A DNA stretch of 64,000 bases. Source: a virus. Its lineage: Duplodnaviria > Caudoviricetes. This document shows, in pieces, positions 56,238 through 58,790 of this stretch. The stretch is taken from IMG/VR virus record IMGVR_UViG_3300037418_002116. One strand, 5' to 3'. The translations under genes were made by a program, and so were the position numbers. Below the pieces are notes generated by a model. It made no database searches. It was not told the DNA's origin and saw only the letters and a list, made by a program, of their open reading frames with translations. How positions within the stretch are numbered: position 1 is the first letter of the stretch; every line of letters begins with the position of its first letter.

Positions 56238-56243
56238 TTTGTT

Positions 56244-56276
56244 CTCCTAATTGGGAGGGATTTTTGGGTCTATCCC
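56244..56276 (-). promoter_or_regulatory. leader motif shared with nadM (GGATAGACC loop plus CTCC-N6-GGAG SD hairpin)
   Basis: GGGATAGACCC-AAAAATCC-CTCCCAATTAGGAG-AACAAA-ATG. Confidence 0.65.
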
Positions 56277-56281
56277 GGTTT

Positions 56282-57337
56282 CTATTCTGTTACTTCATAG
56301 TGTTTCATGACATAGCCCTTTGTAGCGTCACCTTTTTGATATGACTTTACTCGGGCTCTCTTGGCTTCGCACTTTGTGCATTGCCAACGTTCAGGCTTAT
56401 ATTCTTCAAACGTGTGATCGCATGTTTGGCTTCCGCCGATTGTTCGATAGAATGGCTTGCACCAGTGACGCCTTGGTGAAGCTCTTTCATGTGCCGTCTC
56501 GATATACTTCCGAATGGTTTTGACTTCATTCAGATGAATGGTAACGACGGTGTGTGCCATGTAAGCAACTTGCTTGCCTTTTATGAAACCACGCTTCGGT
56601 GCCACATCTCGCAATTCGATCACTTTTTGCGACTGATACAGGAAAAGGATCATGGTGATGAGATTGCGAAGATCACCAGCACCATCCGGCAAAATTTCCC
56701 TAAGCTTGTTTTCTGGCAATTCGGAAATGTTGAGAAAGTGATATTTCTCAACAATTTCATTCCGCATTTCCATGGGAATATCGTTGTCGGAAGAGCCGAG
56801 CATATGAGCGGCTTTCATGCGCCTTGACATGACCACTTCATCCGGGCGACCTTCCGAAGGACCAATCACAATGGCGTAAAGCAGCACCGCTGGCGCTCTG
56901 CCGTCCATACCTTTCGATATGGCGAAAATCATGTTGCCAACGACAAGATATCCGACTCGCCAGTCACGCTTTTCATCGTTGCCGGTCTTTGGACGCCCAA
57001 AAGCTTGCAAGAACAAATCAACATCGAATTCGTAATACGACACGTCGAAGTGTGGTATCGCAAATTGTTCGTTCTTGAACAGAAGTTCCGGAGCCTCTTT
57101 GATGAAATCGGCCATGATTTCAGAAGACTTTTCATCAAAAATAAACTGCTTTGCCTTTGGAAGAGCATACTTGATCGCATTGACCCATTTGTTTTGAACG
57201 CCTCTCATGGTATCTTTTGGTGAAAAGCGTCTCATTTCATCAAGCAAAGAACCTTCGTTCTTGGAACGACCAAGTTCACGCAAAACGTCGTCAATATTCC
57301 GAGGCGGTTTATTGAGAATGGATGCCGGATTTGCCAT
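56282..57337 (-). CDS. 351-aa hypothetical protein inserted in the NAD operon
   Basis: C-terminal SPRRHWC...C.H...WQC.KC...YQKGD..KG.V.K.Y.V. Confidence 0.8.
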   Translation of the reverse strand: MANPASILNKPPRNIDDVLRELGRSKNEGSLLDEMRRFSPKDTMRGVQNKWVNAIKYALPKAKQFIFDEKSSEIMADFIKEAPELLFKNEQFAIPHFDVSYYEFDVDLFLQAFGRPKTGNDEKRDWRVGYLVVGNMIFAISKGMDGRAPAVLLYAIVIGPSEGRPDEVVMSRRMKAAHMLGSSDNDIPMEMRNEIVEKYHFLNISELPENKLREILPDGAGDLRNLITMILFLYQSQKVIELRDVAPKRGFIKGKQVAYMAHTVVTIHLNEVKTIRKYIETAHERASPRRHWCKPFYRTIGGSQTCDHTFEEYKPERWQCTKCEAKRARVKSYQKGDATKGYVMKHYEVTE

Positions 57338-57340
57338 AGC

Positions 57341-58384
57341 TTAGAGCCCCAAAAATTGATCAATAATATCCCAATGATCTTCGAACATTTTTGTTGGGTC
57401 TAGATCGTCCAGCAAGACCCACTTGGCGTCAACGGCGTCGTCGGAACCCTTGATTGTCGGCAATTCCCCATCGGGCAAGCGAATGAGCGCTGCATGAGAG
57501 ACTGTGCGGCCTCTCTGACTCCGGTGTGGATGATCGGCCAAGAACCACTTTTCGATGGAGCCTTCAAGCTTTGGCAAGCGAACGCCAATCTTGGTTTCCT
57601 CGATTAGCTCACGCAACACGCCTTCCTTGACGGTTTCGCCTTGGTTCAGAAAGCCGCCCGGCAGAGCCCAAAGACCTTCACCCGGCATTCCGCCACGCTT
57701 GACCAAAAGCACATGACCAGACTGAACAACCACGGCATCGGTCGTGACGAAGATTGGCGGAAACTGGTTATATTTCTGCCCGTCAACTTCTACCGGCTCG
57801 AATTGCTTTTTGTATTTTTTGATGTGTTCATATTCTCGTTCAATCACATCCAATTCTGATTTGAAAAACAAATTGGTAACGATGCTCTTGTGATTGTCGT
57901 CCACAAACCATTCCGCATTACGTGGTCTGTTTTCATAGAATGCGCACCGAATATCGGTTGCGTTCACCGGATATGGAGTCGGTAAATCCAGCAAATCCCA
58001 TTGTGGGAATTTTTTCAGATAATAGGAAGAATGATCTTTCGAATGACCGATGACGCCAATTTTGGTTGGTCCAGCCCGCCACGGATGATTCGTGGCTGTT
58101 CTGATGATGGCTTGGATTTCAGTTTCCCATTTCGTGTCATTGTACATGAAATCATCACAGGGGACGACAGAGACACGCTTGCGTTCATCGGGTGTGAGCA
58201 ATGACTCGATCAAGCGTTTGCGTTCATCGAACGTGAACGGATTCTTTGCGGTGCGTGGCCTATTGGCCGAACCGACAATCAGGATAACGTTTTGGGATTT
58301 TGCGAGAGCGGTCTGTAAGACCTTGAAATGGCCAGCGTGAAATGGCTGGAAACGGCCTATGAAGGCCAGAAAATCGTACTGCAT
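57341..58384 (-). CDS. nadM: bifunctional NMN adenylyltransferase / ADP-ribose pyrophosphatase (NadM-Nudix)
   Basis: IGRFQPFHAGH (HxGH); KNPFT..ER; NATDIR; Nudix box ALPGGF...GETV.E..LRELIEET; FEDH. Confidence 0.95.
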   Translation of the reverse strand: MQYDFLAFIGRFQPFHAGHFKVLQTALAKSQNVILIVGSANRPRTAKNPFTFDERKRLIESLLTPDERKRVSVVPCDDFMYNDTKWETEIQAIIRTATNHPWRAGPTKIGVIGHSKDHSSYYLKKFPQWDLLDLPTPYPVNATDIRCAFYENRPRNAEWFVDDNHKSIVTNLFFKSELDVIEREYEHIKKYKKQFEPVEVDGQKYNQFPPIFVTTDAVVVQSGHVLLVKRGGMPGEGLWALPGGFLNQGETVKEGVLRELIEETKIGVRLPKLEGSIEKWFLADHPHRSQRGRTVSHAALIRLPDGELPTIKGSDDAVDAKWVLLDDLDPTKMFEDHWDIIDQFLGL

Positions 58385-58390
58385 TTATCA

Positions 58391-58428
58391 CTCCAATTTG
58401 GGAGAGGTTCTTGTGGTCTATCCACAAG
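58391..58428 (-). promoter_or_regulatory. leader motif shared with nadV
   Basis: CTTGTGG-ATAGA-CCACAAG stem-loop, then AACCT-CTCCCAAATTGGAG-TGATAA-ATG; TTGACA-N17-TATATT promoter just upstream. Confidence 0.7.
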
Positions 58429-58790
58429 CTTATTTATTCGAATATATGCTATATGTTGACGTTTGTCAAGAGAAAATTTATGTCAAGGGAAAGTTGAATA
58501 TTTTAATCGATTGAAAGCCCATATTGTCATTTTACATTTCACTAATTTAGGAACATCATTTTCGTGGGTAGGGGCAATAGGGAGAAACGTGGGCAGGGGC
58601 AGAGGGAGAATGTCATGCAACTGTTGAGAGCATGTTTAGCCATTGTCATTCTGGCAATGGCCGGTTTGCCTAGCGGGGCAAACGCATGTACACATGATAC
58701 GTGCGAAGGATTTTTGGGCGGCGGAAATAACAACGGCCAAAATCAGAGGTAGAATTACACTCGTCTAGGTTTGAGTGTCGAGTGTGAAAA

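What the first reader, a model, noticed from the sequence alone, without database searches (positions are those of the whole stretch)
56238..58430. Shared leader motif in front of both NAD+ salvage genes (candidate RNA regulator)
Seen: the leaders of nadM-Nudix and nadV share GGATAGACC (a stem-loop with an AUAGA loop; 7-bp stem before nadM, 3-bp before nadV), followed 9-10 nt later by CTCCCAAWTWGGAG, a hairpin pairing the SD (GGAG) with CTCC 6 nt before the ATG. The nadV copy sits in a 44-nt gap with no room for a promoter, so it probably acts in RNA. I did not see the motif elsewhere in the window. Inference: translational co-regulation by an NAD/NMN/ADP-ribose-responsive element or by binding of NadM-Nudix or the intervening protein.
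Basis: partly seen in the sequence, partly recalled or inferred. Interest (0 to 1): 0.75.

Follow-up and report, generated by a model that had tools for sequence, protein, structure and literature searches.

The report
Two-hairpin leader of NAD-salvage genes
Both NAD-rebuilding genes of this soil phage are preceded by the local version of a small two-hairpin RNA that many phages place almost only in front of these genes; no catalogue or paper I could search describes it, and it probably controls how much of the enzymes is made, though what reads it is unknown.

Summary
On the minus strand, nadM-Nudix (57341-58384) and nadV (54801-56237) each carry GGATAGACC, a hairpin with an AUAGA loop. CTCC-N6-GGAG follows 9-10 nt later and the ATG lies 6 nt after that.

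It is not a local oddity. In 80 phage loci chosen only by NadV similarity, about 35 hairpins with an invariant G[AUAGA]C cap and completely different, compensating stems were found. All lie on the gene strand, and most lie 22-31 nt before the ATG of a NadM or NadV homologue. A second covarying hairpin holds the Shine-Dalgarno sequence.

A complete 242-kb phage has exactly two full copies, one per gene. An unlinked nadM 38 kb from nadV has its own copy. Rfam 15 and the searchable literature do not contain the motif. Eighty bacterial nadV loci lack it.

The window clade is a variant: its second hairpin pairs the SD with CUCC instead of displaying it in the loop.

Best reading: a pathway-specific translational operator in the mRNA. 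The intervening 351-aa protein is clade-specific and cannot be the general reader.

This scan noted the same motif earlier on other genomes.

The parts
58441..58469 (-). Sigma-70-type promoter of the nadM operon: TTGACA, 17 nt, TATATT. The expected transcript start lies a few nt before hairpin 1.
   Evidence: 11 of 12 consensus positions; sequence.
58410..58428 (-). Hairpin 1 of the nadM leader: CUUGUGG[AUAGA]CCACAAG, a 7-bp stem with the invariant G[AUAGA]C cap.
   Evidence: (26.5 bits, E = 0.0003). The stem covaries in relatives.
58391..58404 (-). Hairpin 2 of the nadM leader, window-clade form: CUCC-CAAAUU-GGAG. The SD forms the 3' arm, and the ATG follows 6 nt later at 58384.
57341..58384 (-). 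nadM-Nudix: NMN adenylyltransferase fused to an ADP-ribose pyrophosphatase.
   Evidence: PF01467 and PF00293.
56282..57337 (-). 351-aa ORF between nadM and nadV with no Pfam or PHROG family. The Atlas feature search points to AcrVA2-like proteins. It is present only in the window clade.
56266..56276 (-). Hairpin 1 of the nadV leader: GGG[AUAGA]CCC, a 3-bp stem that starts 5 nt after the stop codon of the upstream ORF.
   Evidence: (17 bits, E = 0.08).
56244..56257 (-). Hairpin 2 of the nadV leader: CUCC-CAAUUA-GGAG. The ATG follows 6 nt later at 56237.
54801..56237 (-). nadV: nicotinamide phosphoribosyltransferase.
   Evidence: PF04095 and PF18127.

Best explanation
The two leaders are copies of a structured piece of mRNA, a translational operator dedicated to the phage NAD+ reconstitution genes nadM-Nudix and nadV (the pathway called NARP2).

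Hairpin 1 is a stem of any sequence capped by G[AUAGA]C. It serves as the address: a small, sequence-specific surface that a pathway-specific reader recognises. Hairpin 2 is the gate. It holds the Shine-Dalgarno sequence and ends at the start codon, so the 30S subunit can load only when this hairpin is open or properly presented. In most lineages the SD sits in a 5-nt loop, A[GGAGU]U. In the window's clade the SD is paired directly with CUCC.

A reader bound at hairpin 1, 4-13 nt away, would stabilise or cover hairpin 2 and so set the translation of each gene separately. This would apply inside an operon, as for the window's nadV, and also when the two genes lie far apart.

Shown here: the RNA structure, its conservation, and its restriction to these genes. 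Inferred: that it regulates translation.
For: Structure:
- 49 distinct hairpin-1 copies pair in 82% of cells against 50% in shuffles (0 of 500 shuffles reach it). The covariation score is 0.79 against 0.20 for shuffles and at most 0.21 for slid registers. All 8 pairs show double changes, while the loop is invariant and the closing pair is G-C in 47 of 49.
- Hairpin 2 pairs in 83% of cells against 48% in shuffles, with a covariation score of 0.77 against 0.17.

Specificity:
- In 720 kb of phage loci, 36 G-C-closed AUAGA hairpins with at least 4 bp were found. Of these, 32 precede a NadM or NadV homologue on the gene strand, nearly all 22-31 nt before the ATG. Two precede small ORFs inside the cluster and 2 are elsewhere.
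- An exhaustive scan of a complete 242-kb phage finds exactly two full copies, before nadM and nadV.
- A nadM 38 kb away from nadV has its own copy.
- Hairpin 2 is found at 52 of 80 NadV and 30 of 66 NadM starts, against 76 of 467 other genes.

RNA level:
- The copies sit just downstream of sigma-70-like -10 boxes, or inside short intercistronic gaps.
- They are always on the sense strand at a fixed distance from the ATG.

Reader travels with the pathway:
- No third gene family is shared by the motif-bearing loci within about 4 kb; the best is 7-8 of about 35 loci.
- The loop type differs between lineages (AUAGA, other ANNGA forms, GGAGU) but is of the same class on both genes of one genome.
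- The motif occurs in phages of Alpha- and Gammaproteobacteria.

A motive for control:
- NARP2 drains PRPP and over-produces NAD+ (Osterman et al., bioRxiv 10.1101/2024.02.11.579819, read).
Against: - No reader has been identified. NadM-Nudix and NadV show only their enzymatic domains in Pfam.
- About half of the phage NadV loci examined have no recognisable hairpin 1, and 80 bacterial loci lack it. The pathway therefore works without it.
- The window's nadV copy has only a 3-bp stem and folds no better than shuffles.
- The two architectures of hairpin 2, SD in the loop versus SD in the stem, would respond differently to the same reader.
- G-U pairs are no more frequent than A-C mismatches (21 against 17 in hairpin 1), so that test does not show which strand folds.
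- There is no expression or binding data of any kind.
Confidence: 0.45

Rival explanations
1. A riboswitch. The two hairpins together bind a small molecule of NAD metabolism (NAD+, NMN, ADP-ribose, nicotinamide or PRPP), and binding changes the accessibility of the SD. The phage would then make the salvage enzymes only when NAD+ is being destroyed.
For: - The distribution is strictly pathway-specific, across phages of different host classes.
- No gene other than the two enzymes is shared.
- The design is two hairpins with conserved loops and a linker free in length and sequence. From my own knowledge, that is also the design of the guanidine-II riboswitch.
- The biological logic is attractive.
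Against: - Only about 7 + 3 nucleotides are conserved, and there is no conserved internal loop or junction.
- The loop of hairpin 1 changes between lineages: AUAGA, AGUGA, ACAGA, GGAGU. That is unusual for a ligand pocket.
- Hairpin 1 is combined with two different second hairpins.
- Some stems have only 2-3 bp.
- No Rfam riboswitch model matches.
Confidence: 0.2
2. A constitutive leader with no regulatory input. Hairpin 1 protects the 5' end or marks a processing site, and hairpin 2 presents the SD in a loop. The result is simply long-lived, well-translated mRNAs.
For: - Many copies start within a few nt of the expected transcript start.
- The SD is displayed in a loop in most lineages.
Against: - A protective hairpin needs no invariant loop and closing pair.
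- The element is absent from all other genes of a complete 242-kb genome and of the window.
- Operon-internal copies are not at a 5' end unless the RNA is cut.
- In the window clade the SD is sequestered, not displayed.
Confidence: 0.17
3. A target for another RNA. The loop of hairpin 1 pairs with a phage or host small RNA, or with a distant part of the mRNA.
For: - The exposed loop is invariant.
- The loop type changes in concert on both genes of a genome.
Against: - Five nucleotides give a very weak duplex.
- No conserved UCUAU partner was seen in the linkers or in the first codons (my inspection).
- No candidate sRNA was found.
Confidence: 0.06
4. A DNA element: an operator for an NrtR-like repressor, or a phage-specific promoter.
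For: - The sequence is an inverted repeat.
- In bacteria, nadM and nadV are commonly under NrtR control (my own knowledge, and earlier notes of this scan).
Against: - The arms differ completely between lineages while the asymmetric centre is constant, the opposite of a dimer operator.
- The element is always on the coding strand, at a fixed distance from the ATG, and downstream of the -10 box where a promoter is visible.
- Its partner element is the SD.
Confidence: 0.03

Closest known systems
PyrR binding loops of the Bacillus pyr operon (Rfam PyrR binding site)
   Same: A short leader hairpin with a conserved loop is repeated before several units of one pathway. It is read by a protein related to a phosphoribosyltransferase of that pathway, whose binding depends on pathway nucleotides.
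   Different: PyrR acts by transcription attenuation through a terminator/antiterminator pair. Here there is no consistent U-tract and the partner element is the SD. There is no sequence similarity and no Rfam match. A reader has not been shown.
Autogenous translational operators of enzymes: phage T4/RB69 DNA polymerase (gene 43) and E. coli thrS
   Same: A hairpin with a specific loop lies next to or overlaps the SD of the enzyme's own mRNA. The enzyme binds it and blocks the ribosome.
   Different: Those operators control one gene each. Here the same operator sits on two different enzyme genes, and binding by either enzyme is untested.
CsrA/RsmA two-site targets
   Same: There are two hairpins a few to tens of nt apart, and the downstream one presents GGA of the SD in its loop. 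Hairpin 2 (A[GGAGU]U) looks like such a site, and in some lineages hairpin 1 also has a GGAGU loop.
   Different: The dominant AUAGA loop of hairpin 1 has no GGA. CsrA regulons are broad, whereas this element is confined to two genes.
Guanidine-II (mini-ykkC) riboswitch
   Same: Two small hairpins whose only conserved parts are the loops and closing pairs, with a variable linker, placed next to the SD.
   Different: In guanidine-II the two loops are identical ACGR tetraloops that pair with each other. Here the loops differ (AUAGA and GGAGU) and are not complementary. No ligand has been tested.
NAD+-I (nadA motif) and NAD+-II (pnuC motif) riboswitches
   Same: A cis-regulatory RNA placed before NAD-supply genes.
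   Different: There was no match to any Rfam model at E up to 10 on the window leaders or on a canonical copy. From my own knowledge, those classes have internal loops or a pseudoknot, which are not seen here.
NrtR operators before bacterial nadM/nadV/prs operons
   Same: The same target genes and the same presumed purpose, matching salvage to NAD status.
   Different: NrtR boxes are DNA palindromes with conserved arms. This element has variable arms and a constant centre, and it lies in the transcript.

Membership tests
Any Rfam 15 family, including the NAD+-I and NAD+-II riboswitches and the PyrR binding site | A match to the family's covariance model. | tested here: not met
   cmscan at E up to 10 on window 54000-59500 and on a canonical copy (L166 2980-4030) gave no hit at the leaders. 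Very short motifs score low, so this excludes membership but not every resemblance.
Two-hairpin NAD-salvage leader (uncatalogued family defined here) | Hairpin 1: a covarying stem capped by G[AUAGA]C. | tested here: met
   Window copies at 58410-58428 and 56266-56276. Family covariation.
Two-hairpin NAD-salvage leader (uncatalogued family defined here) | Position on the sense strand, about 22-31 nt before the ATG of nadM or nadV. | tested here: met
   The distances in the window are 25 and 28 nt. In the family, 32 of 36 copies precede NadM or NadV.
Two-hairpin NAD-salvage leader (uncatalogued family defined here) | Hairpin 2 with the SD in a 5-nt loop closed by A-U, with the stem ending at the ATG. 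| tested here: not met
   The window, L149, L150 and L151 instead pair GGAG with CUCC across a 6-nt loop. The window is therefore a variant of the family in its second half.
NrtR operator | A DNA palindrome with conserved half-sites and a variable centre. | tested here: not met
   The arms are unrelated between lineages and the centre is invariant.
NrtR operator | An NrtR gene (Nudix domain plus winged helix) in the genome. | not tested
   Only part of the phage genome is in the window and no whole genome is held.
CsrA/RsmA target | GGA in the loops of both sites. | tested here: inconclusive
   GGA is invariant in hairpin 2 but absent from the AUAGA loop of hairpin 1. In the window clade a GGA lies partly in the stem of hairpin 1.
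Guanidine-II riboswitch | Two hairpins, each with an ACGR tetraloop. | tested here: not met
   The loops are AUAGA and GGAGU, or CAAAUU in the window.
Intrinsic terminator or attenuator | A GC-rich stem followed by a U-tract on the sense strand. | tested here: not met
   No sense-strand terminator was called at either leader. The tails after hairpin 1 are mostly A/C-rich.

The most novel reading that the evidence does not exclude
The leader is a new, very small metabolite sensor, or an enzyme-plus-metabolite sensor. Through it the phage detects that host immunity (Thoeris, DSR, SIR2-type and similar systems) is destroying NAD+, and only then translates its NAD+-rebuilding enzymes. That would be a virus-encoded RNA switch that senses an immune attack.
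Probability: 0.2. Interest if true: 0.92.

Novelty: new variant of a known kind. Interest (0 to 1): 0.78.

Why it matters
NadV plus NadM (NARP2) is one of the two known ways in which phages rebuild NAD+ after NAD-depleting defence systems have fired. It is costly because it consumes PRPP. How phages control it has not been described.

A small, strongly covarying RNA that marks exactly these genes in many unrelated phages is a ready-made handle on that control:
- It is short enough (about 50 nt) for direct binding and probing experiments.
- It occurs in cultured phages: Roseobacter phage DSS3P8, Rhodobacter phage RcXuper and Xanthomonas phage RTH11.
- Its reader, whether protein or metabolite, would be either a new RNA-binding activity of a core metabolic enzyme or a new riboswitch class.

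It is also a useful annotation mark for NAD counter-defence genes in metagenomic phages.

Tried and rejected
- Rfam on the window leaders and on a canonical copy: nothing.
- Strict sequence pattern in IMG/VR: only three phage lineages, each with two copies, plus one chance hit inside a gene.
- The same pattern in JGI metagenomes: 8 hits. All are GC-rich or without a following gene, and I judged them chance.
- Eighty bacterial NadV loci from species genomes: no AUAGA hairpin before nadV or nadM. I therefore could not reproduce the bacterial occurrences mentioned in earlier notes of this scan. My sample was chosen by similarity to the window's NadV and may simply miss them.
- Literature: no paper combines nadV, riboswitch and phage. 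The NARP2 paper mentions no UTR, hairpin, riboswitch or promoter.
- RNAalifold on a MAFFT alignment of whole leaders found only hairpin 1, because hairpin 2 was out of register. Anchoring on GGA solved this.
- G-U against A-C asymmetry as a strand test: inconclusive.
- Kissing between the two loops, or a pseudoknot of AUAGA with the linker: no conserved complementarity on inspection.
- Hairpin 1 as an antisense-strand terminator (flagged): rejected, because other copies have no T-tail.
- Sequencing runs: the stretch is held by soil and rhizosphere metagenome DNA runs, and no RNA holder is listed.
- The NadV tree with leader labels assigned automatically from the nadV leader only: the AUAGA type is scattered over most clades. 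It needs 12 changes and is clustered more than chance (0 of 500 shuffles). This points to old origin with many losses or replacements, but the labels are crude.
- The loose first look of the genome search missed known second copies in three records. I therefore rescanned the complete genome exhaustively.
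Full report
WHAT IS IN THE WINDOW

The four genes concerned are on the minus strand:
- nadM-Nudix, 57341-58384 (cytidylyltransferase-like plus NUDIX domains)
- a 351-aa ORF without a family, 56282-57337
- nadV, 54801-56237 (NAPRTase plus NAMPT_N domains)
- a GT1 glycosyltransferase, 53818-54786

Read on the minus strand, the nadM leader is a near-consensus sigma-70 promoter (TTGACA-17-TATATT, 58469-58441). It is followed by ..AUAAAUAAG CUUGUGG[AUAGA]CCACAAG aaccu CUCC-caaauu-GGAG ugauaa AUG.

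The nadV leader fills the 44-nt gap after the TAG stop of the upstream ORF..aaacc GGG[AUAGA]CCC aaaaaucc CUCC-caauua-GGAG aacaaa AUG.

A covariance model of the first hairpin picks out just these two sites in the 64-kb window. A third GGATAGACC at 22305 lies inside ORFs and has no SD or ATG nearby.

IS IT MORE THAN CHANCE?

Within the window alone the case is modest. The 9-mer with one mismatch is not enriched, and the nadV leader folds no better than its shuffles. Comparison with relatives settles it.

- In the closest relative in IMG/VR (NadM 87% identical), the 47 nt from TAAATAAG to GGAGTGA are identical while the adjacent promoter region has drifted. Its nadV leader keeps both blocks but has a different spacer and a different stretch before the ATG.
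- A 72%-identical relative has CGUGAGG[AUAGA]CCUCACG and CUCC-auuuua-GGAG.
- A 64-66%-identical one, from a complete 242-kb phage, has UGAGUGG[AUAGA]CCACUCA.

The stem changes by compensating substitutions while the loop stays the same.

THE WIDER FAMILY

I fetched 80 IMG/VR loci chosen only by NadV similarity (46-86% identity) and scanned both strands for AUAGA-capped hairpins.

- 36 were closed by G-C and had at least 4 bp. Of these, 32 precede a NadM or NadV homologue, nearly all 22-31 nt before its ATG and all on the gene strand. Two precede small ORFs inside the cluster and two lie elsewhere.
- With weaker stems included there are 50 leaders, 49 of them distinct.
- On these, the 8-bp helix pairs in 82% of cells against 50% in shuffles (0 of 500 reach it). 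The covariation score is 0.79, against 0.20 for shuffles and at most 0.21 for slid registers. Every pair shows double changes. The loop is invariant and the closing pair is G-C in 47 of 49.

Folding the leaders shows a second hairpin in nearly all of them. It has a 5-8-bp stem that ends 0-3 nt before the AUG and a 5-nt loop holding the SD, typically A[GGAGU]U. Anchored on GGA, this helix pairs in 83% of cells against 48% in shuffles, with a covariation score of 0.77 against 0.17.

Such an SD hairpin is found at 52 of 80 NadV and 30 of 66 NadM starts, but at only 76 of 467 other gene starts in the same loci, and those are mostly minimal 4-bp ones. It is therefore part of the element, not a habit of these phages. 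The linker between the hairpins is 4-13 nt, poor in G, and not conserved.

THE WINDOW IS A VARIANT

In the window and its three nearest lineages, the second hairpin is built differently. The SD is the 3' arm, paired with CUCC across a 6-nt loop.

SPECIFICITY FOR THE PATHWAY

- In the complete 242-kb genome I read every base. Nine G[AUAGA]C sites with at least 2 bp exist, and only the two before nadM and nadV have the second hairpin and an ATG. The model search of five whole records found nothing outside the nad genes.
- Where nadM lies 38 kb from nadV, it carries its own complete copy. So do the nadM genes of two other records.
- No third protein family is common to the motif-bearing loci.
- The 351-aa ORF between the window's two genes occurs only in the window clade.

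RANGE

- On a NadV tree, the AUAGA type is scattered over most clades (the labels are crude).
- About half of the phage loci have no recognisable first hairpin. Some have other caps on good stems: AGUGA, AGAGA, ACUGA, AUUGA, ACAGA and GUAGA (an A-N-N-G-A pattern), or GGAGU. The class is the same on both genes of a genome.
- Cultured phages carry canonical copies on both genes: Roseobacter phage DSS3P8 and Rhodobacter phage RcXuper. Xanthomonas phage RTH11 has one canonical copy and one GUAGA copy. Xanthomonas phage X1 and Stenotrophomonas phage Mendera have only the second hairpin, and Stenotrophomonas phage DLP_6 has two GGAGU hairpins.
- Eighty bacterial nadV loci from species genomes have none.

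KNOWN OR NOT

Rfam 15 has no match on the window or on a canonical copy. Full-text searches found no description. The paper that defined NARP2 does not mention a leader, hairpin, riboswitch or promoter, but it does note that NARP2 consumes PRPP and over-produces NAD+, which gives a reason for control.

Earlier notes of this scan describe the same element on other genomes. I used them only as leads. What I report here I derived independently, and their statement that some bacteria carry it was not reproduced in my sample.

HOW IT PROBABLY WORKS

The variable arms and constant asymmetric centre, the fixed strand and distance to the ATG, the position downstream of -10 boxes, and the SD as the partner element all point to function as RNA. 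They argue against a DNA operator.

An invariant 7-nt cap on an otherwise free stem is what a sequence-specific reader needs. A hairpin that encloses the SD and abuts the AUG is what controls 30S loading. I therefore read the element as a translational operator with an address (hairpin 1) and a gate (hairpin 2).

Three observations favour a reader that co-evolves with the pathway, such as NadM-Nudix or NadV itself:
- the element marks only two genes;
- it follows them when they are unlinked;
- its loop class shifts in concert within genomes but differs between lineages.

I give this whole reading about 0.45. The alternatives are a small riboswitch (0.20), a constitutive stabilising or translation leader (0.17), an RNA partner (0.06) and a DNA element (0.03). 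That a real, pathway-specific RNA element exists I hold at about 0.93.

LIMITS

- There are no expression, probing or binding data, and no RNA runs hold this phage.
- The hairpin-1 copies were collected by requiring the loop and at least two adjacent pairs, so the two innermost pairs are partly selected. The outer six are not.
- Related sequences inflate shuffle tests.
- G-U pairs are not more frequent than A-C mismatches.
- The window's nadV hairpin 1 is weak on its own (3 bp).

Noticed in passing
window 56282-57337 (-): The 351-aa ORF wedged between nadM and nadV has no Pfam or PHROG family. However, the Atlas feature search puts it next to clusters in which 22-45% of members carry PF26125 (AcrVA2-like), with a score of 0.97 and 218-222 of 256 shared features. 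If that holds, an anti-CRISPR-like protein sits inside the NAD counter-defence operon, making it a small anti-defence island. The ORF is found only in the window and two relatives.
   Followed up: partly
window 53818-54786 (-); L033 4567-5538 (-): A GT1 glycosyltransferase (phrog_2170) follows nadV after a 14-nt gap in the window. The same family follows nadV in the 242-kb relative, and a glycosyltransferase is annotated next to nadV in Xanthomonas phage X1. It may belong to the same operon. No leader motif precedes it.
   Followed up: partly
window 58429-58437 (-); L001 3951-3958; L070 ~697-704; L033 ~8391-8398 (-): A box, TAAATAA(G), lies directly 5' of the nadM hairpin 1 and is conserved in all four lineages of the window clade. 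Similar ATAAATA or TATAAATA strings precede hairpin 1 in several distant phages (L154, L164, L176, L203, L215). It resembles the T4 late-promoter box. It could be a second, phage-specific promoter that would start the transcript at the foot of the hairpin.
   Followed up: no
window 56281-56285 (-): The stop codon of the 351-aa ORF lies in a second AUAGA (gaAUAGAaacc), 7 nt before the nadV hairpin. The closest relative has the same arrangement.
   Followed up: no
L212 ~3941; L177 ~3943; L183 ~3947; L186 ~3948: Where nadV follows nadM directly, the nadM stop codon lies in or at hairpin 1. In L212 the UAG of the loop is the stop codon. In L177 and L183 a UGA lies in the 5' arm. In L186 a UAA lies just before the stem. 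A terminating ribosome would unfold the hairpin, which hints at coupling between nadM translation and nadV control.
   Followed up: no
L166 3004-3406; L167 3656-3950: Two small ORFs inside the nad cluster of a 257-kb and a 135-kb phage have their own complete two-hairpin leaders: one of 117 aa (phrog_33851, unknown function) and one of 81 aa (no family). They are possible extra members of the regulon.
   Followed up: partly
L181, L162, L197, L206, L169 (AGUGA/AGAGA/ACUGA/AUUGA); L192, L179, L204 and Stenotrophomonas phage DLP_6 (GGAGU): Lineage-specific alternative caps occur on hairpin 1. The A-N-N-G-A loops other than AUAGA are mostly closed by C-G. In other lineages the loop is GGAGU, identical to the SD loop of hairpin 2. 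The same class is found on both genes of a genome.
   Followed up: partly
window 58827-58898 (-): A tRNA gene (62 bits) lies about 360 bp upstream of the nadM promoter on the same strand.
   Followed up: no
window 58410-58437 (+): Read on the opposite strand, the nadM hairpin 1 plus CTTATTTATT is scored as a terminator-like site. It might stop antisense transcription into nadM. Other copies have no such tail.
   Followed up: no
L335 5269-5826 (Mesorhizobium phage Cp1R7A-A1); L336 and L337 (RcXuper, DSS3P8): The annotated neighbours of the nad genes in cultured phages include a (p)ppGpp synthase/hydrolase, an ATP-dependent DNA ligase, a proteasome beta-subunit homologue and a polynucleotide kinase.
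   Followed up: no
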